Assembly: GCA_000002435.2 (NCBI GenBank)
Contig: CM018792.1
Direction: 5' to 3' (one strand)
Length of the DNA stretch: 64,000 nt
From: Giardia intestinalis
Lineage: Eukaryota
This document shows, piece by piece, positions 6,086 to 48,424 of the stretch (its first letter is position 1; the number at the start of each line of letters is the position of its first letter). Both the position numbers and the translations under genes were made by a program. The notes under the pieces were generated by a model, which saw only the letters and a program-made list of their open reading frames with translations, had not been told where the DNA came from and made no database searches.

Positions 6086-6692
6086 GCGCTCGAGGAAGAG
6101 TGGAAGGCGTTGTCATGGCCTGTAGAGCCTCTGTCCTTCCACCCTTTATAGCTAGATCCCGGGCAGTATAGCCCATTCTGTTCCGCAGCGGCATTTCGCT
6201 AAGTAGCAAGGGAATGCATTCGAGACTGTTGTGAAACACCGCAAGCATGAGCGCTGTCCATCCAGAGCTTGTTTGCTTTCCTAGCTCACATTTTAGTAAA
6301 CAGGCAACCTCAGTATAGTTGTAGCAGGCCGCATACATGAGAGCAGTGTAACCATCTTTATCCTGCATGTTTTTCTCCTGTGGGAGTAAAAGAGATACCA
6401 GAGGCAGTTGGTGTCTCTTAGCAGCCATCATCAGCGCTGTTTCACCGTTGGTCATGAAGCATCCTGCTTCGTGGAAGTAATTGTTGGCCCTGCTCAGATC
6501 ATTTGCTAGTACTGCCTTCATTAGTTCCGTGGGGCTGGACACTGGACCAAGTGACGTAAGGGAGTCAACAGACCTAGGAACTGAAGAGTGCTTCAAAGAC
6601 GGCTCCGCAGATAGTATATTTAAGGGTTCGGACGAGGCATTCACCTCCGACATAAGATTCTTTATGTACTTACAAAGATCATCAAACGTCAT
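6078..6692 (-). CDS. ankyrin-repeat protein (Giardia Protein 21.1-like)
   Basis: ATG at 6692. Three to four ankyrin repeats: GETALMMAAKRHQLPLVSLLL, DGYTALMYAACYNYTEVACLL, SGWTALMLAVFHNSLECIPLLL. Confidence 0.7.
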   Translation of the reverse strand: MTFDDLCKYIKNLMSEVNASSEPLNILSAEPSLKHSSVPRSVDSLTSLGPVSSPTELMKAVLANDLSRANNYFHEAGCFMTNGETALMMAAKRHQLPLVSLLLPQEKNMQDKDGYTALMYAACYNYTEVACLLKCELGKQTSSGWTALMLAVFHNSLECIPLLLSEMPLRNRMGYTARDLAIKGGRTEALQAMTTPSTLPRAPT

Positions 6693-6729
6693 GTAGGTTT
6701 ACTGAATGGGTACTAGGGCTCCTGCACTT

Positions 6730-7698
6730 CTAGTGCGGAGAAAGTTGAAGAAAGAGCTCAGCCAGCAGACGACATAGCTGCAAGGGACTTGAAACGGTTG
6801 TCTTGCTCTTTGCATGTAAACTGGCGAGAATTCGAAGCATACTAGCCCGCACCACGTCATTAATTTCTGTTTCGCTGTTAAGGGCATAGCGAAACATCGC
6901 GTTGTAGATATCGTCGTAATTGTAACCTTCGTTGAGCTGGTTATCTATAAGCATCCATCCGTCGTCAAACTTGCCGGATGTCAGGAGCTTCATAACCTGA
7001 TCAATAACCTTAACATCTATAGTGCTGAGAGCCTTCTGAACACCGGCCACTGTAATTACCTTGTTGTTAGCGTCTGCAACCAGCTGCAGGCTGTTGAGGC
7101 ATGAGCGAACATCGTTCCCAGAGATAGAAATAAGCTCCTTGAGTGCCTCGGTGTCGCTCTTAACCCCTTCCTTTTCGCAGATCTCCTGTAGATATTTGAT
7201 AAGTTCTGCTTGCGTAGCAGGCATGATGCGGAGAACACAACACCGCGATTGGACAGGCTCGATAACCTTCGAGATGTTGTTGCATGCGAGACAGAAGCGC
7301 GTGGAGCCAGTCTCGTCATCCATAATGCGGCGAAGGACTTGCTGGGCGGCCTCTGTCATTGCATCGCATTCGTCGAGGAAAACGAGCTTCTGGATACCCG
7401 CGGGAAGAGTTACTTGCTTTTGGGCGAAGGTCTTGACCTTGGCCCGGATATCGCTGACATTACGCTCGTCCGACGCGTTAAGCTCGAGGAAGGCCACACT
7501 GCGATGTGCACCAAGCATCTGGTTGGCCAGACAAAGAGCGATCGTCGTCTTCCCGAGCCCAGGCCCGCCGGCGAAAAGGATGTTCGGGAGGTTCCCCTGT
7601 GCGGCGAAGTAGCGAAGGCGCGCGAGGATCTCCGGGTTCCCGATGAGCCCGTCGAGGGTGCGCGGGCGGTACCGCTCGATGAATGGGAGTGCCTTCAT
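6730..7698 (-). CDS. replication factor C small subunit (clamp-loader AAA+ ATPase)
   Basis: ATG at 7698. Motifs: ERYRPRTL, Walker A GGPGLGKTT, DEAD-like LDECDAM, SRC motif QSRCCVLR. The first ~60 codons are about 95% GC3 and the 3' third drops to ~45% (see findings). Confidence 0.9.
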   Translation of the reverse strand: MKALPFIERYRPRTLDGLIGNPEILARLRYFAAQGNLPNILFAGGPGLGKTTIALCLANQMLGAHRSVAFLELNASDERNVSDIRAKVKTFAQKQVTLPAGIQKLVFLDECDAMTEAAQQVLRRIMDDETGSTRFCLACNNISKVIEPVQSRCCVLRIMPATQAELIKYLQEICEKEGVKSDTEALKELISISGNDVRSCLNSLQLVADANNKVITVAGVQKALSTIDVKVIDQVMKLLTSGKFDDGWMLIDNQLNEGYNYDDIYNAMFRYALNSETEINDVVRASMLRILASLHAKSKTTVSSPLQLCRLLAELFLQLSPH

Positions 7699-7761
7699 CG
7701 GCCACTCTTTTCAAACAATAAACTGCCTACTCCGGCCTCTGGTGAGGTCCCGCGCGGGCGC

Positions 7762-7844
7762 GCCAGTTTGGCCGAGTGGTTAAGGCGGGGGACTTAAGAT
7801 CCTCTGATCGCAAGATCGCGTGGGTTCGAACCCCACAGCTGGCA
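7762..7844 (+). tRNA. tRNA-Leu (anticodon TAA), type II with long variable arm
   Basis: GCCAGTTTGGCCGAGTGGTTAAGGCGGGGGACTTAAGATCC...GTGGGTTCGAACCCCACAGCTGGCA. Near-identical in architecture to eukaryotic tRNA-Leu(UAA). Followed by a TTTT Pol III terminator. Confidence 0.85.
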
Positions 7845-7848
7845 TTTT
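7845..7848 (+). terminator. Pol III T-run terminator of tRNA-Leu
   Basis: TTTT immediately after the discriminator base. Confidence 0.5.
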
Positions 7849-8508
7849 ATGCTCCACCGTGCGGCGCTCTGCCGCCCTGATCACACCCTCTTCTGGACCG
7901 TCTGCGCGCCCGTCGGTGCAGGACTCGTTTTCCTCTCTCTAGCTGCGCGCAGCATAATCTTGCAGATTCCGTACGCCAGGGTCAGAGCACTCTCTCTGGA
8001 CTCGAGGTCTACGGCTCTGCTGCGCATACATCTGCGCCACGGCGCTACTGTGCTGCTGTGGTGTGATTCAGCAGAGCTTTTGGCGAAAGAGGTTACCGAA
8101 GCTAGCAAAGTAGGAGGCGATGCAAGTCAAACGGAAGACGGCGTCATGTTCTCGTGCCATGTTTCTACGGGGTCTTACGTGCTTCATTCAGCAGTTGTGA
8201 CAGTAGGGCATCTCCACGTGATAGTGCATACATCAGATATTTTGCTGAAATGCCCTGTGGCAGAAATCATCGAAGTCCGCGAAGCAGGGCATCCATGCGT
8301 TATTGACCTGTGCTGCATCTCTAAAAGACTTATCCTTGAGTTTGATAAGAGCGAGGATGCGAACAAATGTCGTACCCTTTTACTTGGCTACATCTTGCTG
8401 AGGACCCTTAAAATAGATGTGAAAGATCAGATAAAACAATTTTACGTGGCTTCCATAGCTCAACCATCAATGCTGTGGGCGGGAAGCCTTTTTCACAATC
8501 TTCAATAA
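7849..8508 (+). CDS. hypothetical protein (start uncertain)
   Basis: 219-codon ORF whose ATG lies 5 nt after the tRNA-Leu 3' end, overlapping the Pol III terminator. The first third is GC-rich, so low stop density there is weak evidence for coding. No recognisable domain. Confidence 0.3.
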   Translation: MLHRAALCRPDHTLFWTVCAPVGAGLVFLSLAARSIILQIPYARVRALSLDSRSTALLRIHLRHGATVLLWCDSAELLAKEVTEASKVGGDASQTEDGVMFSCHVSTGSYVLHSAVVTVGHLHVIVHTSDILLKCPVAEIIEVREAGHPCVIDLCCISKRLILEFDKSEDANKCRTLLLGYILLRTLKIDVKDQIKQFYVASIAQPSMLWAGSLFHNLQ

Positions 8509-38900: not shown

Positions 38901-39381
38901 ACTATTTGCATTTAACAGTCTTTGTGAGTTTAGTTCGTCAGCAAACGTCTTTTTGGAAGATACGGCCTTATACCTTGTAGTATCAACGAGTATAGAGGCC
39001 CTATTTTCAACCACATTAGCACGAAATACGGATTCACTATCACTATCTACAACTCCTATAGTGTGCCAAAGCACTGGTGAGAATCATCAAACATACCTCT
39101 CCATAACAGAAACAGATCAAGAGAGTCTTTTAGTAGCGGTTATAAAGACAGTTATATTGCTCTGTCACCAAATGCTATTGGAGTCAGACTGTTCAGATAG
39201 CAAATCAGAAGTACGGTACTATCAAAACCATTCTCTTTGTAGTATTTCATCCCTTTTACATTCTATATCAGCATTATTACAACGTAATAAACTATCTGTG
39301 AACGACAGCGCATTACTCACGCAACTACGGCGAAGGATAGTTGACGCCATTCCAGCACTAAGTTTAGTTCCTTGTGCATAG
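35914..39381 (+). CDS. hypothetical Ser-rich protein with central coiled coil (1155 aa)
   Basis: ATG at 35914 after gtaattaaaaaatagttctaagc. Coiled-coil segment KELKDKIATLELKLKDEKQRNASTSKELRNLRERKRVLEGQLKKKIEEK. No catalytic motifs. Confidence 0.5.
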   Translation: MKTRGNLAERTAGRTFSALLEKLGEQIYLSRSQTQIVSASSSTSHSNPSLTAYQSQPDVDINTYSLSPQASNCSSCTEDWSQSTSFYSQTSPSHISAQSNDPEDYSSRSYSYSSSDDYYSSSVSYSYCSDLNTEDDIEAPDQISSATRTESSLPRKILRTIIRENPHILSQLRSGLGSDPSCSNKSNQPLESLEYKFSIEEMRKIKEIGEDLVAATQNALKQEARRQREVSNRLSRPKHGMTSTLSLRSHRRQTELTPKGSSKASKRRQPAIVLEVPQLNKGTTTSTVCSSSSVSTELSSPSVGLVTGRHSVKTSTQEASTSSEQIDDPLILSRVQRDYLKVAQPVIQEHSPHRLSIPGSTNSTSNAVEQKVHSDILKRSVTSIATPQELLASVALVGSIPDINSTIEAASKQHVASQTSSTNSFKRKAGDSSISLIGTGSHSKPLSSSALEVSRELPEPASRLVTTKSSSLARTQPMIDLTLTTTAPQPGNASTSYRPRSLSSLSQQLHTAQLQSDQVVKELKDKIATLELKLKDEKQRNASTSKELRNLRERKRVLEGQLKKKIEEKDLATWEAQKKALKMNVSLMRTIAAMKANSSSSKTQRKYSHRQVPSHMLTRRDPDCSEPTQSLLNTNLPLIEIAPPMAKLSASKENSIPPSVKLFDSIEQSADVNEIVVCSHKRQTHSSGSHDLNRLFVDTCNKTIRDALADVYSLDSTTIPVFASADLPTLHIETTPPPPIISADREPDSPVDRQKLLESDISPEVTIGKLKSQDTDQDEESARAYTLPVDKQLFQKDLHKNASIVLGNQTHLDSELKHSRPPIAPRQENRARSIRRHGECVALFLLPSPTRYPADAAEITKLIVSISTDISSAPGLPSNDQEHMHENLRLVRELIESPDLSIFNYPLFGAKLIAAMFCTYGPGSFPVFSTVIYRISDLLLTEVVSLANTPTNPTLYEIECRLYTYILNIIRGTCLLVMSVTTCTSLQPGESSLQILLFAFNSLCEFSSSANVFLEDTALYLVVSTSIEALFSTTLARNTDSLSLSTTPIVCQSTGENHQTYLSITETDQESLLVAVIKTVILLCHQMLLESDCSDSKSEVRYYQNHSLCSISSLLHSISALLQRNKLSVNDSALLTQLRRRIVDAIPALSLVPCA

Positions 39382-39393
39382 CTCTACTAGGCC

Positions 39394-42300
39394 TTATTTG
39401 TTAGAAGAGAGAAGCTGCTCAATGTCGTCAAGCTGTTTGCGTAACATTTTGTTCTTCTTATTACGGTTCAATATAATAGGTACTATGATAGCAACAATCA
39501 GCACTATAACACAACACACAACTGTGACCGATATTATAACGGTTCGGTTGTTTATGGGGGCTAATTCTGGATATATGCATAGACCATATCCTCTATTAAT
39601 AACATAAGGTGCATTGCATTTTAAACAATATAGTGGGTTATACACGTCGCATAAACTACATGTTGGATGGTCGCACTTATCTGTTGTGAAGCATGTGTTA
39701 TTGATAAGCGTAAAATCGGTCAAACATTCTAAGCAATGAAATGGAGAAAGACACCTTTTACATCCTGCCTCACATCGGTCACACCCCTTGGTAGAAGGAT
39801 TAAAAACGTATCCTCCTTGACATACCTTACACGCTGTTTCGCTGTTTAAGACGCAACTGAAGCACCCAACGACTTGACAATTATTCTCAATTTTTTTACA
39901 TACCCACTCTTCATTGGGATGGTATACCTCCCCTGTGCTGTAGACTTCACATGCAATACAGAGAGTTGGATCACTTCTGATGGAAACAGCGCATGAATTG
40001 GCGGTTCCTTCATTGTAGACGTTATACACACACAGCCCAATCACAGGCAAGTTATCATAATTTTTACATAGCAAGCACCCTGCAGAGTTTGTACACAATG
40101 GACAATACAGAGGACACGGAGTACAGTATCCTTCTGGGTTGTGGTAGTATCCCATTGCGCATTTGATACACTTCCATGGGTCATCGCAAGAACAACGCAA
40201 ACAGTGGGGAACATTGCAGGTCGGACATATCATGCAAAGAATGTCTCCTGCATTTGCGAGGACTTCAGATGCGACTAGAAACCCTAAAGGACATGTGACA
40301 CAAACAGCTGGGGACTCTGGCAGCGGAAACGGAAGGATACTACCGCACATTGCACACTCCGATTGACACTTGGAACATATCGTTGTCCCACTAAGTACAT
40401 AGTGTGATGTAACACAACTAATGCAAGTATCTGGATCGTCCTTCTTGCAGTGTCTACAGTTGGGAACATTGCATGGGGTTGTGATATATTGAAATGGAAG
40501 AAGAGGAGGCGATTGTGTCGAGGGTGTATAGTTAAACGTATAATTGCAATCCCAGCCGATTTTGGATATTTTGTCATTGACAATCATCTTGCCTGCCCAC
40601 TGAACAGATGGGTTCCTTGTCGATACAGACATAGGACTGAGCTCATAATTTGGTAACGTTCGAAGAACAGGTTTCTTACTGTCAAAGAACCACTCACTTG
40701 TCTCGGTGAACTGGAAGGCGTATGTAAACTTTTCAATACTCATCGCCTGACTTATTGTAAATTCGTTTGAAAGAATATACTTGTTTTGCACAATATATAT
40801 AAGATCGCAGAGCAAACAATTATTGATCTCGCTTGTACCAGCGTAGAGAGACACACTGAGCGTGCCAGAGACTTTTGAGGTAATTATTTGGGCGGTTAGA
40901 TTGATGAGGACTCCCTTAATTGACGTATGAGAAAGGAGAGACTTTCCTAATAGGGCACCAATGCCGTATGCATTGACTCCAGAGGGAGAAAAATCCTTAA
41001 ACCCAACCATCTGGAGAGAAACAATTGCTTGGATGTAAGAATTATAAAAGTAAATATCTGCGTACGACAAGCCAAAGAGCCCCCCGTATAGAAATGTGCT
41101 GGAAGCTAAACAAGTTTCTCCAGAATAAAAGGAGGCATTCATCGTAGTGTAGGAAGACCGCACTGTCAGATTGTTCATTAGAGTTTGGTATCTTTGAAGA
41201 ATATATCCCACTAGGCCGCCTACAATAGCACTATTGTTATAGGGTAGACAGGAAAGGGTTGCATTCGCTATTCCATAGACCGCATATGAACTGTATATGG
41301 TCGAGATGTAATCGTCCTTCAACAGGACACCTCCAACTAACCCTCCGAGGGTAAGGGTTGAAGTGATCTCTTCAGAAGCAGTGAAATTGATATATGCATA
41401 TGCTGCTGCAGTGCTATTGATAAGAAATTTGCTACCTTCGCCAAGAAGCCCGCCAAAGACAAAATTATCCATATAAATTCCAATGATGGTCGTGAAGTTG
41501 ATTAGTGATTGATGGACAAAAATATCGCCTGTCCCCATTGCCACTGCACCACCGAAAAAAATGCCATTGCACTGGGCTACATTTGCCGGCAAAGGAACTC
41601 TGCAAGCAGATCTGTCGTGAGTCTCCACCGCTACCATGCACTGTCTGAATTCAGAAAGTACAGCCAGACCAGCAATTCCTCCCGTGTGCAGACACGAATG
41701 CAAATTTGTTATATTGATAATTGTCCTAGTGACTTGAAGATTGGTACTGCTAGCAAGAATTCCCCCAACATAATCTATCGTATAGTCTGCAGTGAAGTCA
41801 GAAATAGTAATGTTACAAGAATCTATTCTATTCGATAAAAATGTTGTTGCATTTCCAGTACCTACAAGTCCACCAACATAATTGGTATTGGCAGACCCAG
41901 ATGTGATGACTTGCAACTGATCAAGCTTACCGCGAACATCCACCAGGCTGGCTAATAACAGCCCAACAACACCACCAGCAATGGTGGGCTTGTCATTCAT
42001 ACCAGAAATTTGGATTTGCCCAGAAATGGTAGAGTTAGCAACAGATTGATATGTCATCCCAAAGAGAGCCCCGGCATAGCAAGATGATTGCAAGCACCGT
42101 ATGTTTGTGTTTGATGTCAAATTCATAGTAGATGATGTCAAGTTTGTTACAGGAAAACCATTCTCTGCTATTCCAACAATCCCGGCTAACCCGCCCACAT
42201 ATGCACTCATGAGCGTCACCTGTATGGTAGAGTTGATGGTAATGTCACTTGGGAAACTCAATGTGGCGCCGCAAAAGCCCCCGATTGCCTTACGAGAGCA

Positions 42301-42729
42301 ATCTCTACAGTACTCTGTTCCTCCCGTTACTCTGGAGGTCACATTGACGTTCTGAATCATCTTTGGAACCATGTACCCTGCAAATCCACCAATGAAGACA
42401 CTATCTGCCTTAATGCTCTTAATGTGTATATCCAAAACAATGTTTCTAACTATCCCATTGAAGGTTCGAAAGAATCCAAGAGTGTAGCCTCCAGAACTGA
42501 TGGTTATATTACTAATTGCATGATTTTCCCCATCGAGAACGCCATAAAATGTGTTTATGGGAATAAAGTCCTCTTTCATGACAATGTCTTGCTTCAATTT
42601 AAATGCGGAGTTCGGGCAATACCGCATCATCTCCATGGATTCTACATCATTTATGTCATAAAACACATTGCAACTGACCTGTTCACCCAAGACTGCAGCC
42701 AATAAAATCAAAAGAAAGGTGATGGTCAT
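39394..42729 (-). CDS. type I membrane protein: signal peptide, ~18 GLUG-like (GG[LFIV]xG) repeats, HCMP-like cysteine-rich stalk, TM, short tail
   Basis: ATG at 42729. Starts MTITFLLILLAAVLG. Repeats VGGLAGIVG, GGVVGLLLAS, VGGLVGTGNAT, VGGILASST, TGGIAGLAV, FGGLLGEGS, LGGLVGGVLL, VGGLVGYIL, YGGLFGLSY and others at ~35-45 aa spacing. Then CxxC-rich region (CRHCKKDDPDTCISC...CEAGCKRCLSPFHCLECL), TM helix VTVVCCVIVLIVAIIVPIIL and tail NRNKKNKMLRKQ. Confidence 0.75.
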   Translation of the reverse strand: MTITFLLILLAAVLGEQVSCNVFYDINDVESMEMMRYCPNSAFKLKQDIVMKEDFIPINTFYGVLDGENHAISNITISSGGYTLGFFRTFNGIVRNIVLDIHIKSIKADSVFIGGFAGYMVPKMIQNVNVTSRVTGGTEYCRDCSRKAIGGFCGATLSFPSDITINSTIQVTLMSAYVGGLAGIVGIAENGFPVTNLTSSTMNLTSNTNIRCLQSSCYAGALFGMTYQSVANSTISGQIQISGMNDKPTIAGGVVGLLLASLVDVRGKLDQLQVITSGSANTNYVGGLVGTGNATTFLSNRIDSCNITISDFTADYTIDYVGGILASSTNLQVTRTIINITNLHSCLHTGGIAGLAVLSEFRQCMVAVETHDRSACRVPLPANVAQCNGIFFGGAVAMGTGDIFVHQSLINFTTIIGIYMDNFVFGGLLGEGSKFLINSTAAAYAYINFTASEEITSTLTLGGLVGGVLLKDDYISTIYSSYAVYGIANATLSCLPYNNSAIVGGLVGYILQRYQTLMNNLTVRSSYTTMNASFYSGETCLASSTFLYGGLFGLSYADIYFYNSYIQAIVSLQMVGFKDFSPSGVNAYGIGALLGKSLLSHTSIKGVLINLTAQIITSKVSGTLSVSLYAGTSEINNCLLCDLIYIVQNKYILSNEFTISQAMSIEKFTYAFQFTETSEWFFDSKKPVLRTLPNYELSPMSVSTRNPSVQWAGKMIVNDKISKIGWDCNYTFNYTPSTQSPPLLPFQYITTPCNVPNCRHCKKDDPDTCISCVTSHYVLSGTTICSKCQSECAMCGSILPFPLPESPAVCVTCPLGFLVASEVLANAGDILCMICPTCNVPHCLRCSCDDPWKCIKCAMGYYHNPEGYCTPCPLYCPLCTNSAGCLLCKNYDNLPVIGLCVYNVYNEGTANSCAVSIRSDPTLCIACEVYSTGEVYHPNEEWVCKKIENNCQVVGCFSCVLNSETACKVCQGGYVFNPSTKGCDRCEAGCKRCLSPFHCLECLTDFTLINNTCFTTDKCDHPTCSLCDVYNPLYCLKCNAPYVINRGYGLCIYPELAPINNRTVIISVTVVCCVIVLIVAIIVPIILNRNKKNKMLRKQLDDIEQLLSSNK

Positions 42730-42787
42730 TAAAAAGTATACATCTACAGTCCAATGAAATCAGAAGCAAGGCACATAGGTTTCACAC

Positions 42788-43123
42788 ATGGCTTTGATTA
42801 AGCTTCGGTCGATGGTAACAACCTATTTACTCTGGCTGTTCTTGGGCATCTTTGGGGGGCATAGATTTTATCTCTATCAGTATGACATGGGCCTGCTATA
42901 TCTCTTTACCGCAGGAATATTCCTGATGGGGTGGATAACCGATGCGTTCATTATCCCCTTTATGGTCTGGGAAACAAATACGATCATCCGTGCCATCAAT
43001 AGACAGCAATTACAATTTGAGAACGAATACGGAGAAAATACAATAGTGCACCCTACTCGCCCACGCTATCCTCTAGTCACTCAGGTCAAGGCAACCGAAT
43101 ACGATGGACCTAAGGTCTTCTAA
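42788..43123 (+). CDS. TM2 domain-containing protein
   Basis: ATG at 42788. Two TM helices with the TM2 signature LWLFLGIFGGHRFYLYQYDMGLLYLFTAGIFLMGWITDAFIIP. Confidence 0.8.
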   Translation: MALIKLRSMVTTYLLWLFLGIFGGHRFYLYQYDMGLLYLFTAGIFLMGWITDAFIIPFMVWETNTIIRAINRQQLQFENEYGENTIVHPTRPRYPLVTQVKATEYDGPKVF

Positions 43124-44190
43124 GTAGAAGAGTTTGAGCACAATCTCGACTTCTGCCGTATCATAATTGTTTGGCAACGAATAATTTCCGGCTGCATTGC
43201 TTTTGTAAATGAGACGTTCGTCTTGGGTGTAGTTATTATCACTGAGGTAGACAAAGAGGATGCTTCAACCTCTAGTACCGAATGCTGCGCAGGCATTAGC
43301 TCTGATGCCGCATTAAGGTCTTGCTTTTCCGGAGGTTGTATGACGCTCTTCTTAGAAGTTAGCTGCTTTAGTTGCGGTTCCTTCGGTGCTTGATGATCTA
43401 ACTTTGATTGCGAGGGGTTAGAGCTTACACCTTTGCTTTTTTCAGCTCGTATTACCTTCTCTTTTGGAGAGTTGTTCGCTTGTAACTGTTTGTGCAAATG
43501 GCAGAGACGATCAACAAATTGTGTGTCAAACAAGGTTGATAGGGCCCGCAAAGATATATCCTCCCGTCTTCTAACATACATTCGGAGATACAGTTCTGGT
43601 TCGTAGCTCTCTGTTGGCCGTGTTGACGTACTGAGTATTAAAATGTAACACTTATTACATAAGCAGGCACAATCTGCTTCTCGCGATCCAAAAAATAGTG
43701 GCCGCATCTCACGACTAAACGCTTTCCTACAGGCTAAATGGATCATAGAGTTGCAACGAATGCAAACGCTTACGGGAAGCCCGGATTTTCCCTTTTTGCA
43801 ATGGAGACAGACATGCCGAGGACAGGAAAAGGATAAACCAAAAATATCCTGAGTGGGCAGTCCAGCTTTCTTGTAGCATTGTTGGTGGAACACTGTCTGA
43901 CAACCTGGTACACAGCACACAAGTAATGGGCCTTGATCATTAACCTTATGTTCGAGACAAATAGAGCAAACGCTTGTTCCTCTTTGACATGCTGTACAAG
44001 TGAAGTGGTAGTTGCTACCTAAACATTCTAATAGTCTCTTATTCATGTTTATCCGTTCTTCGTTAAAAACTGGCTCAGCTTTCCGGATTTTGGCTTCGAT
44101 GAGACACATAGGGCAATATGATCTGCGACAGACCCCTGCACAGACGATTCCATCTGGCTGTGCACAGAGGCAACAAATAGCGGATGTCAT
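43120..44190 (-). CDS. PHD-type zinc-finger protein
   Basis: ATG at 44190 after an AT-rich initiator. Several Cys4-His-Cys3 clusters (CTACQRGTSVCSICLEHKVNDQGPLLVCCVPGCQTVFHQQCY; CPRHVCLHCKK...CIRCNSMIHLAC). Overlaps the TM2 gene 3' end by 4 bp. Confidence 0.55.
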   Translation of the reverse strand: MTSAICCLCAQPDGIVCAGVCRRSYCPMCLIEAKIRKAEPVFNEERINMNKRLLECLGSNYHFTCTACQRGTSVCSICLEHKVNDQGPLLVCCVPGCQTVFHQQCYKKAGLPTQDIFGLSFSCPRHVCLHCKKGKSGLPVSVCIRCNSMIHLACRKAFSREMRPLFFGSREADCACLCNKCYILILSTSTRPTESYEPELYLRMYVRRREDISLRALSTLFDTQFVDRLCHLHKQLQANNSPKEKVIRAEKSKGVSSNPSQSKLDHQAPKEPQLKQLTSKKSVIQPPEKQDLNAASELMPAQHSVLEVEASSLSTSVIITTPKTNVSFTKAMQPEIIRCQTIMIRQKSRLCSNSST

Positions 44191-44318: not shown

Positions 44319-46970
44319 TTAGTTGGGGAGAGTCTTCTTCAGCTTCTCAAACTCCCCTTCGTAATACTTCCTCAGATCTTCTAATGACAATGAAAACTTG
44401 CTTCGTAACGATGGAACGTAGCATCTTTCGGAATAGTCAAGGAAAAGGGAATATCTTCTTTTTATACTTTCAAAGAGTGCATCACTGACTTGCTTCAGAA
44501 GGCCTATTGTTCCATCCTTGATACGCGCAACAGCAACGATGGACGAGCAATTTGCAATGGCCGCCTTGAGGTTTATATGCTTGAAAAATCGGTCCATGGT
44601 ATCCGAAAAGTGCTTCTTGATGGTTGAGTTGCATGTCTTTATTGCTTTCTCTACATCCTTATGTGCTAGTCCTGTCTGGGTGGGTACGTCGGTTGGCTGG
44701 ATCCCTCCGGCTATAACCTCTTCAATCTTATCGACAACCTGAACCCAGGAGAAGTCTTTGGAAGAATTATCGCAGAACTTGTACCTAATATTCTCTTCTA
44801 TATACTCAGATAGCAAAATATCTATTTTAGTCTTCAAAGACATCTGTATGGATGTGCTGAAGTTGTGCTCTAAAAGACTGTCACAGAAGTATATAAGAAA
44901 TGACAAGTTTTCAATGGTAGCAATGTTCCGGTACTTTTCAGTATTTGCTTTATCTGCTACTATAATAGAATCAAGCCACGCCTCAAATCTTTCAACGATA
45001 AGCATGTACGGGTTTGTTATAAGCTTGAGCAGCGACATGTGTCCGGAGTCAAGCTTAAATGTCATCGGGAATGTACTTTCTTCAATATCTGGCTGAGTAA
45101 AAGTAATGCTCCCAGCGCGATCTGACGGAAGGAAAGCTGACAATGAGCTAAACAGACTACTGTACGCAGGGGAGCTCGCTGAGAGCGTCTTGACGGTGAG
45201 GGTAGCAGAACAATACATAGCATGTATTGCAGAGAGCAGTGTGCACGTGTAAATGGTACCGGGAAAGACACCGGCTTGCTTGATCGTTGGCTGCTGTTTT
45301 GATAAGTGTGCATGAAAAGTATCCGTGAAGGACACGACGTGGGACTCGATGGTCTGCAGGGCGCTGGACAGCAAAAGTATCATAAGGTCGCAATCAAGGG
45401 TGCACGCTATTGACAGAGCATGATCTATCTGCATGTAAAGAGCGAACCCATAGAGAGGGTTGGACGTCAGAACGCCTTCGAGAACATGACTGAGAGGTCT
45501 AGTCCGGACTGAAGAGAAATAGGCCTCAGGAACATCCTTAACCCATTTTAGTGTGTTACGATAGGATTGACTTCTGGTAAAATCTAAGGTTGAGAAGTAT
45601 TTTATTTCTGCATGGAGCATTTTATAATCTAGAACGGGGTAGAAAATGGTTCCGAGGCAAGCGTCAATCGTAGAGAGATCTGTTAACAATTTGTTACTTC
45701 CGTTTGCACTGAGTTTTTGTATAGCAACCTCCAGAGACTCACGAGAGGAAAGTTGCTCATTTAAGACAGCATCCAATACAACAGTAAATCTTTCGATTTC
45801 GTGGATCTCTTTCGTGCCGTGTCTGGGCTCTGAATTTTCCTTTGGGTTACTAGAGAAAAAAACTGATAGCAAGATATCTCGTGTATGATATATGTATATG
45901 GTTACAGCCAAGAAGTAATATCCTAGCGCGCGATCTAAGTATTCACAGCCATCTTTGAGAAGGTTATTTGCATAGGTGGAATGATGCAGTTGTACCGTAT
46001 TCACAGTCGAGTTAGAGTGCCTCCCCGATTTTGTTTGGGCTTCTCTCTCCGCAGCAACTCTACGATCGATAGGTACACTGTCCGGATAACAAATGGTGCT
46101 ATAGGATAGTTCATATATCTTAAGTCCTAGGCCTCTGAGTAGATTTATATCTGGTGCTGCAATGCCCTCATGCATGTTGTCCTCTAAGAAGGATATGCTT
46201 CCACGCGCTAGTTCATAAAGTACTAGTATCACAGCTGCTCGCACAAGGCTATAACTGGCAGGATCTAACTCTTTTAGAAAAGATATGGAAGCTGCATCAG
46301 AGAACAACATCTCACGAAAGGATGCAACATCAAAGTAGCTTTTTATATCCTTAACCTTGCATCGCTTACGTGTAGCAATAATGACCGCAAACTCGTTACA
46401 AATGGCCTTTATAAGTCGCATGGTCAGCGCTTGTACAAAGGTTCTAATAGCATCTTTGATCTGGGCATGTGAACGAGAGACAACAACAAAGGTGTCAAAC
46501 CCGGGGAATTCCTCTGCGTAGCTATGCATTGCTTCAAAATAGCTTTGAGACGCCTCAATAATCGACAACTCAAACTGCCTATCTGCTCCATGTCTATATG
46601 CTTGCAGATCTTTTAATAGGTTATCTGCGACAGTAAGAATATGATCAACGGCCTCGAGAATGCGTATCATTTGCTGCTTCTCTGATTCTGTTGTATTGGC
46701 TTGCTGTTTCGTCTTAACGTTGTAGATATTGGCATGGTGCTCGCGGCCCCGGAGCGCCGCCAGGGTGACGGAGTCCCCAATATTTGCAATACCTGTACTC
46801 AGATGCACAGCCTCCATAACAACACGCTGAAGATCAGCATTAGTGTCCTTATTAATGGCGAAGATCCCCAGCAGTAGGTGTTCGTTAGCAAGCTCCAGCT
46901 CGTCCGCGAGCTGAACCAACTGAGACTTGTGTCCGGAGGGAAGGAGATGCGGGCCGGAGGGAGAGGGCAT
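44319..46970 (-). CDS. hypothetical alpha-helical protein (883 aa)
   Basis: ATG at 46970 after ttttatttttaaaag. Helical-repeat character. Unassigned. Confidence 0.5.
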   Translation of the reverse strand: MPSPSGPHLLPSGHKSQLVQLADELELANEHLLLGIFAINKDTNADLQRVVMEAVHLSTGIANIGDSVTLAALRGREHHANIYNVKTKQQANTTESEKQQMIRILEAVDHILTVADNLLKDLQAYRHGADRQFELSIIEASQSYFEAMHSYAEEFPGFDTFVVVSRSHAQIKDAIRTFVQALTMRLIKAICNEFAVIIATRKRCKVKDIKSYFDVASFREMLFSDAASISFLKELDPASYSLVRAAVILVLYELARGSISFLEDNMHEGIAAPDINLLRGLGLKIYELSYSTICYPDSVPIDRRVAAEREAQTKSGRHSNSTVNTVQLHHSTYANNLLKDGCEYLDRALGYYFLAVTIYIYHTRDILLSVFFSSNPKENSEPRHGTKEIHEIERFTVVLDAVLNEQLSSRESLEVAIQKLSANGSNKLLTDLSTIDACLGTIFYPVLDYKMLHAEIKYFSTLDFTRSQSYRNTLKWVKDVPEAYFSSVRTRPLSHVLEGVLTSNPLYGFALYMQIDHALSIACTLDCDLMILLLSSALQTIESHVVSFTDTFHAHLSKQQPTIKQAGVFPGTIYTCTLLSAIHAMYCSATLTVKTLSASSPAYSSLFSSLSAFLPSDRAGSITFTQPDIEESTFPMTFKLDSGHMSLLKLITNPYMLIVERFEAWLDSIIVADKANTEKYRNIATIENLSFLIYFCDSLLEHNFSTSIQMSLKTKIDILLSEYIEENIRYKFCDNSSKDFSWVQVVDKIEEVIAGGIQPTDVPTQTGLAHKDVEKAIKTCNSTIKKHFSDTMDRFFKHINLKAAIANCSSIVAVARIKDGTIGLLKQVSDALFESIKRRYSLFLDYSERCYVPSLRSKFSLSLEDLRKYYEGEFEKLKKTLPN

Positions 46971-47090
46971 CTTTTAAAAATAAAAATCTCTGCTCCTTTT
47001 CGAGTGGTGTTTTCCTACAGGAATGCCTCGAGGCCTCATGGCACAAAACAAATAGTTCAAAGGTTATATATAGAATTGTGCGGGGTTTGC

Positions 47091-47162
47091 GCCGGAATAG
47101 CTCAGCGGTAGAGCGCTGCACTTGTAATGCAGTGGTCGCGGGTTCAATTCCCGCTTTCGGCT
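47091..47162 (+). tRNA. tRNA-Thr (anticodon TGT)
   Basis: GCCGGAATAGCTCAGCGGTAGAGCGCTGCACTTGTAATGCAGTGGTCGCGGGTTCAATTCCCGCTTTCGGCT. Matches the architecture of eukaryotic tRNA-Thr(UGU). A T-run follows. Confidence 0.85.
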
Positions 47163-47283
47163 TTTCAGTGGGCCTTACAGGTTACAGGTGCTTCTCCGCA
47201 GAATCCCCATCACAGAGGCCGTTATCCCCCCGGAGGTGTGGGCCAAGATCCGCGCCCTGAGCTTAGCAAGCCTCGACAAGGCC

Positions 47284-47991
47284 ATGGGGCTCATTGAGGG
47301 GGCGTCGTGGAAGGACCCCAAGGTGGACGAGGGGATGTCGATCACCACCGCCGTGGTCGAGGGCAACAAGAACCACGCGCTCAAGGCGACGATGGAGATA
47401 CCATACCCCGTCCACTGCTGCTTCGGGGCCCTTGTGGCGATGAACATCAACGTTGACGAGACCAACAGCCAGGCCCTCCGCAAGTCGACGCTTTTCCGCC
47501 GCGAGACGCTGGAGTCTCCGGCCGACGCCGAGGCGAAGAAAGCCTATGCAGGCTATGCCCAGCAGAAGACGGCCCAGGACTTCCCCGAGGTCAGGGAGAT
47601 CTCTAGCGTCTCCCAGTTTGTCACCACGTCTCCCTCTGCGATTGTCGCCCACCGCGAGTTTCTCACCGTCCTCAACTTCAGGGAGCTCCCGAAGGCGGAG
47701 GGGAGGCGCCGAATCCTCTACTCGTTCATGAGCCCAGAGCTCCCGGAGCTTCTCGCCCTTTACCCAGAGGCGACCAAGCAGGAGGGCTGGGTCCGCGGAG
47801 TCGTCCACATCAGCGCCTTCCTTTTTGAGGAGACGGCCCCGGGCAGCGGAAAGACAGCCGCCACGTTTGTCTGCCATAGCGATCCCATGGGAAAGGTCCC
47901 GGCGCTGCTTGCCAACTCAGTGATTGTCAACCAGGCGAAGTCCCTGCTCAGCATCGTTAAGGTCATCGAGACCGGGCAGGTCCAGAAGTGA
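47284..47991 (+). CDS. START/Bet v1-like lipid-binding domain protein
   Basis: The track ORF starts at GTG 47188, 26 nt after the tRNA; the first ATG is at 47284. START-like core: VSQFVTTSPSAIVAHREFLTVLNFRELP...RRRILYSFMSPELPELLALYPE...WVRGVVHISAFLFEE...TFVCHSDPMGKVPALLANSVIVNQAKSLLSIV. About 63% GC with very high GC3. No AT-rich initiator. Confidence 0.6.
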   Translation: MGLIEGASWKDPKVDEGMSITTAVVEGNKNHALKATMEIPYPVHCCFGALVAMNINVDETNSQALRKSTLFRRETLESPADAEAKKAYAGYAQQKTAQDFPEVREISSVSQFVTTSPSAIVAHREFLTVLNFRELPKAEGRRRILYSFMSPELPELLALYPEATKQEGWVRGVVHISAFLFEETAPGSGKTAATFVCHSDPMGKVPALLANSVIVNQAKSLLSIVKVIETGQVQK

Positions 47992-48424
47992 ATGCATGAT
48001 GGTGCGTCTCACTAACGCTGGCCCGTTCTTTGGGTGTGCTGCAAGTCTGTCCTTCTTTTCCGGACGTGCATGCACTCCCACGAGGAACCTACAATTCTGG
48101 ATGCAGTGAAGGGGCCGATTACACGTCAGCCCTAGCAGCCCATGAGAGCCGCCTCCTGCAGACCTCTGGCCCAGGTTATACTGAGGACGCTATCGTAGAC
48201 ACAGATCTTTAGAAATCCTCATCCAACTTGAGTGCCTGAAGGAGTCTTAGTCTCGAGCATTATGCAATCTAACCACCATCGTTCTCGGCTCCAGCTGATC
48301 TTTCCCAATACAAGAGACATCGGGGACCCGTCGCCCAATTCGCACTCACAGTCGCTGTCTCCTGCCAATGGGCGCACCTACTCGAGCTTTCTCCACAATC
48401 GCCACCGCAGTAGATACATTTACA

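What the first reader, a model, noticed from the sequence alone, without database searches (positions are those of the whole stretch)
39394..42729. Surface protein combining a GLUG-like repeat domain (probable beta-helix) with an HCMP-type cysteine stalk
The N-terminal ~700 aa carry about 18 evenly spaced GG[LFIV]xG motifs, each embedded in short beta-strand-like segments rich in N/T/S/I. This pattern is characteristic of the GLUG motif found in bacterial IgA1-protease and adhesin passenger domains, which form right-handed beta-helices. It is fused to a diplomonad-style CxxC-rich stalk, one TM helix and a 20-aa cytoplasmic tail. Such an architecture would be an unusual adhesin-like or cyst-wall-like molecule. 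The repeat domain could be of bacterial origin or a convergent beta-helix.
Basis: partly seen in the sequence, partly recalled or inferred. Interest (0 to 1): 0.55.

Follow-up and report, generated by a model that had tools for sequence, protein, structure and literature searches.

The report
Giardia membrane protein with bacterial-type beta-helix
This Giardia gene, annotated only as a "high cysteine membrane protein", carries a large outer domain related to the GLUG beta-helix of bacterial surface proteins and IgA1 proteases, so it is a plausible but untested binding molecule that the parasite lineage probably acquired from bacteria.

Summary
The ORF is real: window 39394-42729, minus strand, 1111 aa. 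It is identical to Giardia intestinalis WB XP_001705350.1 (GL50803_104087), annotated "High cysteine membrane protein".

The GG motif is real but over-counted. There are 10 strict GG[LFIV]xG and 13 GG[LFIVA] motifs, against 2.4 expected by shuffling, not about 18.

Pfam GLUG alone is below threshold (10.3 bits; cut-off 20.5). Homology to bacterial GLUG/Peptidase_M26_N proteins is nevertheless well supported:
- Profiles built only from Giardia-type sequences retrieve hundreds of bacterial GLUG proteins (E down to about 1e-37).
- Their only matches among solved structures are the M26 IgA1 proteases.

The helix sits on a CxxC stalk (20 CxxC), followed by one TM helix and a 24-aa tail. There is no HExxH motif, so it is not a protease.

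The same architecture occurs in at least 3 WB paralogues, 3 G. muris genes and unnamed compact eukaryotic contigs, which form one clade in a rough tree. The best reading is an old bacterial acquisition fused to a Giardia stalk, acting as a non-enzymatic binding module.

Published tables show transcripts, peptides and induction at 14 h of encystation. No searched paper describes the domain. Function is inferred.

The parts
39394..42729 (-). Complete CDS (1111 aa plus stop codon) = Giardia intestinalis WB GL50803_104087 / XP_001705350.1 / A8BRA3, annotated 'High cysteine membrane protein'
   Evidence: ORF list. Exact-sequence look-up. Gene id from supplementary tables.
42682..42729 (-). Signal peptide, about aa 1-16 (MTITFLLILLAAVLGE)
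   Evidence: Hydrophobic N-terminus read from the sequence. Modelled as a separate helix H2-14. The cleavage site was not predicted with a dedicated tool.
42415..42681 (-). Non-repetitive head/cap, aa 17-105: 'YDINDVESMEMMRYCPNSAFKLKQDIVMKEDFIPINTFYGVLDGENHAISNITI...GFFRTFNGIVRNIVL'. It has the same layout as the start of bacterial GLUG/Peptidase_M26_N domains. C20 is conserved in 7 of the 8 paralogues and C38 in 7 of 8, and both are absent from the bacterial sequences.
   Evidence: BLASTP to P0017 over aa 24-183, E 2e-13. Most library hits match profile positions about 20-185. D48, F61, G63, G67 and F87 are invariant or nearly so across Giardia and bacterial sequences. pLDDT 90-97.
41005..42414 (-). 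GG-motif repeat region, aa 106-575: 13 coils, each carrying x-[VI]-G-G-[LFIV]-x-G. This is the core of the predicted right-handed beta-helix.
40495..41004 (-). Distal part of the N-domain, aa 576-745. It holds the last degenerate coils, then a closing region with family-conserved W680, 'P-x-L-x-x-LP-x-Y' and 'GWDC/CWDY..VW' motifs.
   Evidence: Alignment A2: W680 is invariant, and the LPY and CWDY motifs are shared by paralogues. Similar 'W...P.L' endings can be read in bacterial GLUG proteins P0017 and P0028. Model confidence is low here: pLDDT below 50 for aa 650-736.
39541..40494 (-). Cysteine-rich stalk, aa 746-1063, with 20 CxxC motifs (HCMP/VSP-like)
   Evidence: Cys and CxxC positions. 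Sub-threshold Pfam VSP hits (PF03302) in orthologues, E 2e-4 to 5e-4. Classified as CRMP in the supplement of bioRxiv 10.1101/2022.03.07.483299.
39469..39540 (-). Single transmembrane helix, aa 1064-1087 (VIISVTVVCCVIVLIVAIIVPIIL)
   Evidence: Kyte-Doolittle maximum of 3.45 for 19-aa windows starting at aa 1064-1065.
39397..39468 (-). Cytoplasmic tail, aa 1088-1111 (NRNKKNKMLRKQLDDIEQLLSSNK). It is not the VSP tail CRGKA. A basic juxtamembrane stretch is followed by 'DDIEQLL', which fits the acidic-dileucine pattern [DE]xxxL[LI].
   Evidence: Sequence. Tail identity across assemblages is 58-83%. Reading it as a sorting motif is inference.
42744..42749 (.). CTACAG (matches CWACAG), a Myb2-type encystation motif 15 bp upstream of the ATG. 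It lies in the 58-bp intergenic region shared with the divergent TM2-domain gene.
   Evidence: Found in the sequence. PMC8700996 lists GL50803_104087 among 83 genes up-regulated at 14 h of encystation that have this motif. On its own the motif is weak evidence: about 0.2 occurrences are expected per 200 bp on both strands.
42730..42741 (-). A/T-rich stretch (gtatacttttta) directly before the ATG, where Giardia initiator-type promoters lie
   Evidence: Sequence. The promoter role is inferred from general knowledge of Giardia promoters.

Best explanation
The gene encodes a type I membrane protein of Giardia intestinalis (GL50803_104087).

Architecture. After a signal peptide, the ectodomain begins with a module of about 730 aa that is homologous to the bacterial GLUG / Peptidase_M26_N domain. 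This module has a capped head followed by about 17 coils of a right-handed parallel beta-helix, 13 of which keep the GG[LFIV]xG turn. A Giardia-type CxxC-rich stalk of about 320 aa holds it away from the membrane. One TM helix anchors the protein, and a 24-aa non-VSP tail follows.

Origin. The module most likely entered an ancestor of Giardia from bacteria. It was fused to the lineage's own cysteine-rich stalk and then duplicated, giving at least 3 genes in WB and 3 in G. muris.

Function. It has no protease motif. It most likely works as a rigid, non-enzymatic binding platform (adhesin or receptor) displayed at the parasite surface, with expression rising in mid-encystation.

Shown: the ORF, the motif lattice, homology to GLUG proteins, the predicted fold, conservation across Giardia, and published transcript and peptide evidence.

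Inferred: the direction of transfer, surface exposure, binding function, ligand, and any role of the tail in sorting.
For: Identity: exact match to XP_001705350.1 / A8BRA3, seen on 149 contigs. Gene id.

Homology:
- The orthologue profile gives 395 hits at E<=1e-3 in an exhaustive HMMER scan. The tested bacterial hits P0022 and P0024 carry Pfam GLUG at 1e-53 and 6e-38, plus Peptidase_M26_N.
- With the diplomonad-only profile A2, 84 of 116 listed non-Giardia hits have PF07581 and/or PF05342. E reaches about 1e-37 for GLUG-annotated proteins.
- The head aligns to P0017 at E 2e-13.
- A2's only PDB sequence hits are the M26 IgA1 proteases, E 7.7e-6. The mixed profile A3 hits chain residues 115-376 at E 1e-18. 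That region is NTD2, described as a beta-helix gating domain in PMC9637739.

Native gene, not an artefact:
- Orthologues in other assemblages are 75-89% identical in the N-domain, and there is a full-length G. muris homologue at E 1e-76.
- GC3 is 0.42, like the neighbouring genes.
- TPM values and unique peptides are in the preprint's tables.

Constraint: the beta-helix is 77-90% identical between assemblages, against 69-84% for the stalk.

Single origin: the diplomonad-type sequences form one clade among 113 sequences in a rough NJ tree.

Not a protease: no HExxH motif.

Encystation: the gene is listed among 83 genes induced at 14 h that carry the Myb2 motif, and the motif is present at 42744-42749.
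Against: - Pfam GLUG itself is below its gathering score for this protein and all four orthologues scanned.
- HMMER scores on repeat proteins can be inflated by the recurring GG motif. The non-repetitive head alignment counters this only in part.
- The AF2 model depended on an alignment that includes bacterial sequences. With orthologues alone, pLDDT was 43. Residues 650-736 remain unmodelled.
- No binding, localisation or knock-down data exist for this gene in the papers searched.
- The gene is not among the HCMPs strongly induced on host-cell contact. One supplementary table gives log fold-change -0.32.
- The NJ tree has no support values and the distances are near saturation (about 0.73).
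- The donor lineage is unknown.
- Beta-helices also serve as scaffolds for enzymes, and this was not excluded.
Confidence: 0.6

Rival explanations
1. Same molecule, different role. It is mainly an encystation or cyst-stage protein, for example a component or receptor of encystation vesicles, the cyst wall or the excyzoite surface, and not a trophozoite adhesin.
For: PMC8700996 Table S3 places GL50803_104087 among 83 genes up-regulated at 14 h of encystation that carry a CWACAG Myb2 motif. The motif lies 15 bp upstream of the ATG. Another cysteine-rich protein, HCNCp, goes to encystation vesicles and the cyst wall (PMC1762436).
Against: The gene is also transcribed in trophozoite cultures, at about 32-288 TPM. 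The size of the induction was not recovered. The motif is short (about 0.2 expected by chance per 200 bp) and lies in an intergenic region shared with the divergent TM2 gene. There are no localisation data.
Confidence: 0.25
2. The beta-helix is a scaffold for an enzyme, such as a polysaccharide lyase, hydrolase or depolymerase acting on mucus or bacterial glycans, and not a passive binder.
Against: The closest sequence and structure relatives are the non-catalytic GLUG/NTD2 module, and sequence identity to the enzymes is only 5-11%. No HExxH motif is present. No Pfam or NCBIfam enzyme family is hit. Active-site geometry was not examined.
Confidence: 0.08
3. The domain keeps the ligand preference of its IgA1-protease relatives. 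It binds host secretory IgA, or another mucosal glycoprotein, as a decoy or immune-evasion receptor.
For: The nearest solved structures are the NTD2 gating domains of IgA1 metalloproteases, which reposition when IgA1 substrate binds. From general knowledge, not tested here: Giardia lives where secretory IgA is a major effector.
Against: GLUG domains occur in hundreds of bacterial proteins with unrelated partner domains (SLH, BspA-type LRR, haemagglutinin, fimbrillin, lipase), so the fold does not imply IgA binding. Identity to NTD2 is only 14%. In the proteases, substrate recognition involves other domains as well.
Confidence: 0.07
4. The resemblance to GLUG is convergent, a Gly-rich beta-solenoid that arose within Giardia cysteine-rich proteins, or the ORF is an assembly or contamination chimera.
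For: Pfam GLUG is sub-threshold. Solenoid repeats can converge on Gly-Gly turns.
Against: The non-repetitive head aligns with bacterial proteins at E 2e-13 pairwise. Profile E-values reach about 1e-37 in a database of 5.8 billion sequences. The head-to-repeats layout is shared and a similar closing W...P.L motif is seen in some bacterial proteins. The exact protein is on 149 contigs, including a 2.76-Mb one, and has orthologues in several assemblages and in G. muris. Composition is native. Peptides have been detected.
Confidence: 0.03

Closest known systems
Bacterial GLUG-motif / Peptidase_M26_N beta-helix module (Pfam PF07581 + PF05342). Solved examples: NTD2 of the Streptococcus pneumoniae and Gemella haemolysans IgA1 metalloproteases (6XJA/6XJB/7JGJ, 7UVK/7UVL) and BACOVA_03286 (3N6Z).
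   Same: The head motif is the same (..L..I......F.L..DI......PI..F.G.LDG.GH.I.N..I...GLF....G.V.NL). The periodic x-V-G-G-L-x-G turns are the same, and so is the right-handed beta-helix fold. These are the best sequence and structure matches.
   Different: The host is a eukaryote. The helix is about twice as long, roughly 17 coils against the short NTD2. No metalloprotease domain or HExxH motif is present. There are no bacterial anchoring domains (LPXTG, SLH, T5SS/TPS). The cap has conserved Cys residues, and there are 19 N-x-S/T sequons against 9.2 expected. The module is fused to a CxxC stalk and a TM helix. The Pfam GLUG score is below threshold.
Giardia high cysteine membrane proteins (HCMP; renamed CRMP in bioRxiv 10.1101/2022.03.07.483299)
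   Same: Signal peptide, CxxC-rich extracellular region (22 CxxC), a single C-terminal TM helix, and a cytoplasmic tail longer than and unlike CRGKA. The gene is annotated HCMP and listed as CRMP.
   Different: Two thirds of the ectodomain is a Cys-poor (2.2%) beta-helix. Overall Cys is therefore 6.0%, below the >=10% of the original HCMP definition (PMC1762436). It has no 'Group' assignment in the expression tables. It has one-to-one orthologues across assemblages, 75-89% identical in the N-domain.
Giardia variant-specific surface proteins (VSPs)
   Same: CxxC-rich type I surface-protein design. Some database records call the orthologues 'VSP'. There are weak PF03302 hits in orthologues.
   Different: No CRGKA tail. 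The Pfam VSP score is far below cut-off. The locus is conserved and not variant. It has a large non-Cys N-domain.
Beta-helical bacterial adhesins (for example pneumococcal PfbA, autotransporter passengers Ag43/UpaB/TibA, the TPS adhesin EtpA, L. reuteri SRRP binding region)
   Different: There is no detectable sequence relationship beyond the fold (5-11% identity). Secretion and anchoring systems differ. Membership is not claimed.
Unnamed eukaryotic metagenome proteins P0184, P0190 and P0064 (GLUG-like N-domain plus EGF/teneurin-like Cys-rich repeats plus a C-terminal hydrophobic helix)
   Same: The overall design is the same: a bacterial-type beta-helix on a cysteine-rich stalk with a terminal TM helix. 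P0184 lies beside a Rab-GDI gene on an intron-poor contig, which marks the contig as eukaryotic.
   Different: The stalks are EGF-like and not CxxC-dense. The organisms are unknown. In the rough tree they fall just outside the core Giardia-type clade, mixed with four sequences of unknown origin.

Membership tests
Pfam GLUG motif family (PF07581) | Score at or above the curated gathering threshold (20.5 bits) with the Pfam HMM | tested here: not met
   10.3 bits (E = 1) for this protein. Orthologues score 16.2 and 19.2 bits or have no hit.
GLUG / Peptidase_M26_N beta-helix superfamily (homology, not the Pfam cut-off) | Significant profile-level sequence similarity to proteins that carry GLUG/M26_N, including the non-repetitive head | tested here: met
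   The orthologue profile gives 395 library hits, and bacterial hits carry GLUG at 1e-53 and 6e-38 plus M26_N. With the diplomonad profile, 84 of 116 listed hits have PF07581/PF05342, with E to about 1e-37. The head aligns by BLASTP at E 2e-13. PDB hits are IgA1 proteases only.
GLUG / Peptidase_M26_N beta-helix superfamily | Right-handed beta-helix fold that superposes best on solved family members | tested here: met
M26 IgA1-specific metalloendopeptidases (ZmpA/B/C type) | Zinc-binding HExxH motif and the M26 catalytic middle and C-terminal domains | tested here: not met
   No HExxH anywhere in the 1111 aa. No peptidase family is hit in Pfam or NCBIfam. Similarity is limited to the NTD2-like region.
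Giardia HCMP, original definition (Davids et al. 2006, PMC1762436) | Type I membrane protein, >=400 aa, >=10% Cys, >=20 CxC/CxxC, no CRGKA tail | tested here: not met
   1111 aa, 22 CxxC, one C-terminal TM helix and no CRGKA are all met. Cys is 67/1111 = 6.0%, below 10%.
Giardia CRMP (current re-definition, bioRxiv 10.1101/2022.03.07.483299) | >=4% Cys, >=2 CxC/CxxC/CxxxC motifs, similarity to annotated Cys-rich proteins, signal peptide, a TM helix, and a non-VSP tail | tested here: met
   Cys content, motifs, TM helix and tail were checked here. The preprint's Table S3 lists GL50803_00104087 as CRMP, using the criteria quoted.
Giardia VSP | Conserved C-terminal TM helix followed by the invariant cytoplasmic tail CRGKA; Pfam PF03302 above cut-off | tested here: not met
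   The tail is NRNKKNKMLRKQLDDIEQLLSSNK. PF03302 scores 11.8 bits on the stalk alone and 19-21 bits in orthologues, against a cut-off of 31.4.
Functional adhesin | Surface exposure and demonstrable binding to a host or microbial ligand | not testable with these tools
   No localisation or binding data for GL50803_104087 were found. Only one paper names the gene in its main text.

The most novel reading that the evidence does not exclude
Giardia, and related gut protists seen only in metagenomes, captured the GLUG beta-helix from gut bacteria, where it forms the substrate-gating domain of IgA1 proteases and occurs in many other surface proteins. They now display it on a cysteine-rich stalk as a conserved, non-variant receptor that binds a mucosal ligand such as secretory IgA, mucin glycans or the surface of neighbouring bacteria. 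That would give the parasite a fixed adhesion or immune-evasion molecule underneath its variable VSP coat.
Probability: 0.1. Interest if true: 0.85.

Novelty: new variant of a known kind. Interest (0 to 1): 0.5.

Why it matters
- Function is known for very few of the roughly 100 HCMP/CRMP genes of Giardia. This result gives a small conserved subfamily (GL50803_104087, 11692, 14225 and three G. muris genes) a recognisable domain with solved bacterial relatives. That turns "cysteine-rich membrane protein" into a testable hypothesis: a rigid beta-helical binding module.
- The domain is conserved across assemblages and is not a VSP. If it is surface-exposed, it would be a stable antigen or adhesin candidate, which matters for vaccines and diagnostics.
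- It would add a cell-surface example to the lateral transfers from bacteria into Giardia, which in the papers read here are mostly metabolic genes (PMC7641422).
- It shows how a bacterial module can be grafted onto a lineage-specific eukaryotic stalk.

Tried and rejected
- Pfam and NCBIfam on the single protein gave only a sub-threshold GLUG hit and nothing in NCBIfam. Domain scans alone would have wrongly refuted the finding.
- The first AlphaFold2 run, with 5 near-identical orthologues, was unusable: pLDDT 43. I did not use it for fold searches.
- The orthologue-only profile A1 found nothing in PDB sequences at E<=10. The paralogue profile A2 was needed.
- The search for related loci on bacterial genomes with A3 failed because no column stretch was conserved enough. 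The afdb50 fold library was unavailable. As a result, donor taxonomy and the named eukaryotic distribution are unresolved.
- The second word-indexed search did not return the known Giardia paralogues. It is therefore not a complete census.
- Paper searches for 'Giardia' + 'GLUG' matched only the microsporidian Glugea with word-start matching, and nothing with whole-word matching.
- A protease reading was rejected: no HExxH.
- A recent-transfer reading was rejected: composition is native.
- A tandem-family reading was rejected: there is no second copy in the window.
- The third large protein search, on the stalk, was not run. The stalk's class was already settled by annotation, motif counts and the preprint's classification.


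Full report
**What is at the coordinates**

Window 39394..42729 holds one uninterrupted minus-strand ORF of 1111 aa. An exact-sequence look-up identifies it as Giardia intestinalis WB XP_001705350.1 / A8BRA3, "High cysteine membrane protein". It is present on 149 contigs, including one of 2.76 Mb. Near-identical copies in other isolates are labelled "VSP, putative". Supplementary tables give the gene id GL50803_104087 (GL50803_00104087), on chromosome 4 / NC_051859.1.

The surroundings look like ordinary compact Giardia genome:
- A divergent TM2-domain gene starts 58 bp upstream.
- A convergent 1155-aa ORF ends 12 bp from the stop codon.
- The DNA composition matches the neighbours: N-domain GC 0.421 and GC3 0.424, stalk GC3 0.378, neighbouring genes GC3 0.36-0.48.
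- No second copy of the domain is encoded in the window.

**Checking the observation**

The motif is real but was over-counted. I find 10 strict GG[LFIV]xG motifs and 13 GG[LFIVA] motifs between aa 114 and 553, spaced 28-45 aa. One 73-aa gap contains a degenerate AGALFG copy. Shuffling aa 1-720 gives 2.4 +/- 1.4 relaxed motifs (maximum 8 in 2000 shuffles), and 0.32 +/- 0.58 of GG[LFIV]x[GA] against 11 observed.

The C-terminal part is as described. The stalk is rich in Cys (45 Cys in aa 761-1050) and holds 20 of the protein's 22 CxxC, between aa 758 and 1038. There is one hydrophobic helix at aa 1064-1087. The tail is 24 aa, not 20: NRNKKNKMLRKQLDDIEQLLSSNK.

**Is the N-domain GLUG-like?**

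PF07581 scores 10.3 bits (E = 1; cut-off 20.5) on this protein. Of the three orthologues scanned, two score 16.2 and 19.2 bits and the third has no hit. NCBIfam gives nothing.

Deeper searches reverse that answer:
- A first search with aa 1-740 found only orthologues at 76-98% identity. It also found one weak hit at E 3e-4, a bacterial protein with SLH and GLUG domains.
- Pairwise BLASTP aligns the non-repetitive head of the Giardia protein (aa 24-183) to that protein at E 2e-13 and 29% identity. The shared pattern runs through "..AF.L.QD......PI..F.G.LDG....I". This matters because the match does not rest on the repeated GG turn.
- A profile of five orthologue N-domains (A1) was scored against every one of 1.84 billion representative proteins. 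It gave 395 hits at E<=1e-3 and 30 at E<=1e-10.
- Those hits fall into two kinds. One kind matches over the full length and has the same architecture. The other is a large set of bacterial-type proteins that match mainly profile positions 20-185, often several times per protein. The bacterial proteins tested carry Pfam GLUG at 1e-53, 6e-38 and 7e-14. Two of them also carry Peptidase_M26_N, and one has BspA-type LRR plus Big_2.

**A conserved Giardia-type family**

The full-length hits are listed below:
- G. muris TNJ30651.1 (E 1e-76), TNJ26536.1 and TNJ27234.1.
- A WB paralogue, XP_001708828.1 = GL50803_11692.
- Unnamed proteins from sequencing-run assemblies (P0021, P0183, P0064).

Except for P0064, whose C-terminal part is weakly EGF-like with only 2 CxxC, all share the same layout. 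It runs: signal peptide, head, about 12 GG coils at matching positions, a closing region, a CxxC stalk starting at about aa 720-816, a TM helix, and a tail.

In an alignment of eight such N-domains that share only 21-29% identity (A2), the GG pairs at 150/151, 179/180, 252/253, 286/287, 322/323 and 350/351 are invariant. So are G393, G426, G462, G504/505 and W680. The closing motifs "P.L..LPY" and "CWDY..VW" are shared as well.

The contigs carrying P0021 and P0183 are gene-dense. They hold clearly eukaryotic genes: HECT ligase, CCDC113/96, papain-like protease, ankyrin and TPR proteins. A third WB paralogue, GL50803_14225 (1805 aa), is visible in a preprint supplement with the same head and GG repeats. 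The orthologue table of PMC8700996 links GL50803_104087 to three G. muris genes.

**The diplomonad-only profile against bacteria and solved structures**

Profile A2 contains no bacterial sequence. Searched against the 5.8-billion-protein collection, it returns 180 hits. Of the 116 non-Giardia proteins listed, 84 carry precomputed PF07581 and/or PF05342, with E-values down to about 1e-37. Named examples include:
- "GLUG motif-containing protein [Parabacteroides]"
- "ZmpA/ZmpB/ZmpC family metallo-endopeptidase-related protein"
- several "filamentous hemagglutinin N-terminal domain-containing" proteins

Against all PDB sequences, A2 hits only the M26 IgA1 proteases: 7JGJ/6XJB/6XJA at E 7.7e-6 and 7UVL/7UVK at 7e-5 to 1e-4. 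A mixed profile A3 hits chain residues 115-376 of the pneumococcal enzyme at E 1e-18. In the numbering of PMC9637739 that region is NTD2. The paper describes NTD2 as a beta-helix that gates the active site and moves when IgA1 binds.

**Structure**

With the five orthologues alone, AlphaFold2 failed (pLDDT 43).

I then built a 30-sequence alignment: 5 orthologues, 7 paralogues and 18 further homologous segments (17 bacterial-type plus the eukaryotic P0193), all eligible hits. With it the model reached mean pLDDT 79.9 and pTM 0.82. Residues 20-560 are mostly at 85-97, and only aa 650-736 are unmodelled. The secondary structure is a regular series of three-strand coils, each GG sitting between two short strands.

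The predicted fold is therefore a right-handed parallel beta-helix, closest to the GLUG/M26_N type.

**Origin**

I infer a bacterial origin, for four reasons:
- The family is overwhelmingly bacterial in both searches.
- The eukaryotic members found lie in Giardia and in a few compact, unnamed eukaryotic contigs. These include P0184 beside a Rab-GDI gene and P0193 beside BCD1/zf-HIT genes.
- In a rough neighbour-joining tree of the head and first coils (113 sequences, 181 columns, no support values), the Giardia-type proteins form a single clade with no bacterial sequence inside.
- Composition is fully native, so any transfer is old. It predates the split of G. intestinalis and G. muris.

The donor group could not be determined.

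**Function**

There is no HExxH motif and no peptidase or other enzyme family, so the protein is not an IgA1 protease.

Between assemblages the beta-helix is at least as conserved as the stalk: 77-90% against 69-84% identity. This is consistent with the helix being a constrained, functional part.

N-x-S/T sequons are enriched in the N-domain: 19 against 9.2 +/- 2.6 expected. This fits either glycosylation or a structural Asn/Thr ladder. I did not distinguish the two.

Published expression data:
- Transcripts of about 32-53 TPM in seven samples and about 214-288 TPM in seven others, with unique peptides in re-analysed proteomes (bioRxiv 10.1101/2022.03.07.483299, Tables S9 and S13).
- A small change under iron chelation, and log fold-change -0.32 in one host-interaction table (PMC7461913).
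- Membership of the 83 genes that are up-regulated at 14 h of encystation and carry a CWACAG Myb2 motif (PMC8700996).

I confirmed a CTACAG at 42744-42749, 15 bp upstream of the ATG. The motif is short, and the intergenic region is shared with the TM2 gene.

The most likely mechanism is a rigid, non-enzymatic binding platform held above the membrane by the disulfide-rich stalk. This rests on analogy with bacterial GLUG-bearing surface proteins and beta-helical adhesins. The ligand and the life stage are open. The tail motif DDIEQLL fits the acidic-dileucine pattern, which hints at adaptor-mediated sorting, but that is inference only.

**Comparison with what is known, and novelty**

The gene belongs to an annotated class. 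It meets the current CRMP criteria and is listed as such. It fails the original HCMP criterion of >=10% Cys, because the Cys-poor helix dilutes the total to 6.0%. It is not a VSP, since it lacks the CRGKA tail.

No paper in the searchable library links Giardia and GLUG. The HCMP/CRMP papers I read discuss only EGF-like, furin-like, VSP and leishmanolysin-like features. The gene id appears in the main text of just one paper, in a table.

I therefore rate this as a new variant of a known kind: a bacterial surface-protein module grafted onto a Giardia cysteine-rich stalk, in a small conserved subfamily. Bacterial-type surface domains in gut protists are known in principle, so the finding is interesting but not extraordinary.

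**Limits**

- The structure is predicted, and the prediction depends on bacterial sequences in the alignment.
- The tree is crude.
- The census of eukaryotic members is incomplete.
- Nothing here tests localisation or binding.

Noticed in passing
window 42788-43123 (+) and intergenic 42730-42787: A 111-aa TM2-domain protein (Pfam TM2, E 1e-17) is transcribed divergently from the gene. Only 58 bp separate the two start codons, so the Myb2-like CTACAG at 42744-42749 could serve either gene.
   Followed up: partly
window 35914-39381 (+): A 1155-aa Ser-rich ORF with no Pfam family converges on the gene. Its stop codon lies 12 bp from the gene's stop codon, so the 3' ends of the two transcripts must overlap or abut.
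   Followed up: partly
window 41509-41838 (+): A 109-aa TTG-initiated ORF lies antisense inside the beta-helix coding region. It is most likely a chance ORF and was not examined further.
   Followed up: no
not in window: GL50803_14225 (supplementary Table S3 of bioRxiv 10.1101/2022.03.07.483299): A third WB paralogue of 1805 aa has the same head (…DVTLNDDITLKLPWMPVPAYGKVFDGKGHTIRNISV…) and GG repeats. It was seen only as text in a supplement. It did not turn up among the proteins returned by my searches.
   Followed up: partly
L001 4664-8830 (P0184); also P0190 and P0064: Metagenome or sequencing-run proteins combine a GLUG-like N-domain with EGF/teneurin-like cysteine repeats and a terminal hydrophobic helix. 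P0184 sits next to a Rab-GDI gene. The helix-on-a-cysteine-stalk design therefore exists in other, unidentified eukaryotes.
   Followed up: partly
L003 4727-7933 and 11267-16231: The Giardia-like homologue P0021 is flanked by two large genes (1068 and 1654 aa) with no Pfam family. I did not check whether the 1068-aa gene is a tandem paralogue.
   Followed up: no
GL50803_104087 row, Table S9 of bioRxiv 10.1101/2022.03.07.483299: TPM values fall into two groups: about 32-53 in seven samples and about 214-288 in seven others, a difference of roughly 5-6 fold. I did not identify the sample groups. The cause could be a clone or condition difference, or a technical effect.
   Followed up: no
window 39397-39468 (-), aa 1088-1111: The cytoplasmic tail contains DDIEQLL, which matches the acidic-dileucine pattern [DE]xxxL[LI]. 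Related forms occur in orthologues (DDIDQLL, DAVDQLL, DGIDQIL). It may be a sorting signal, but this is untested.
   Followed up: partly
window 6001-8000, 32001-36000, 46001-48000: These three stretches have clearly higher G+C (0.52-0.56) than the window average of 0.457. I did not examine them.
   Followed up: no
window 43120-44190 (-): A 356-aa Cys-rich ORF gives weak, sub-threshold PHD-finger hits (PHD_NSD at E 5e-4). It is an ordinary neighbour and unrelated to the finding.
   Followed up: partly
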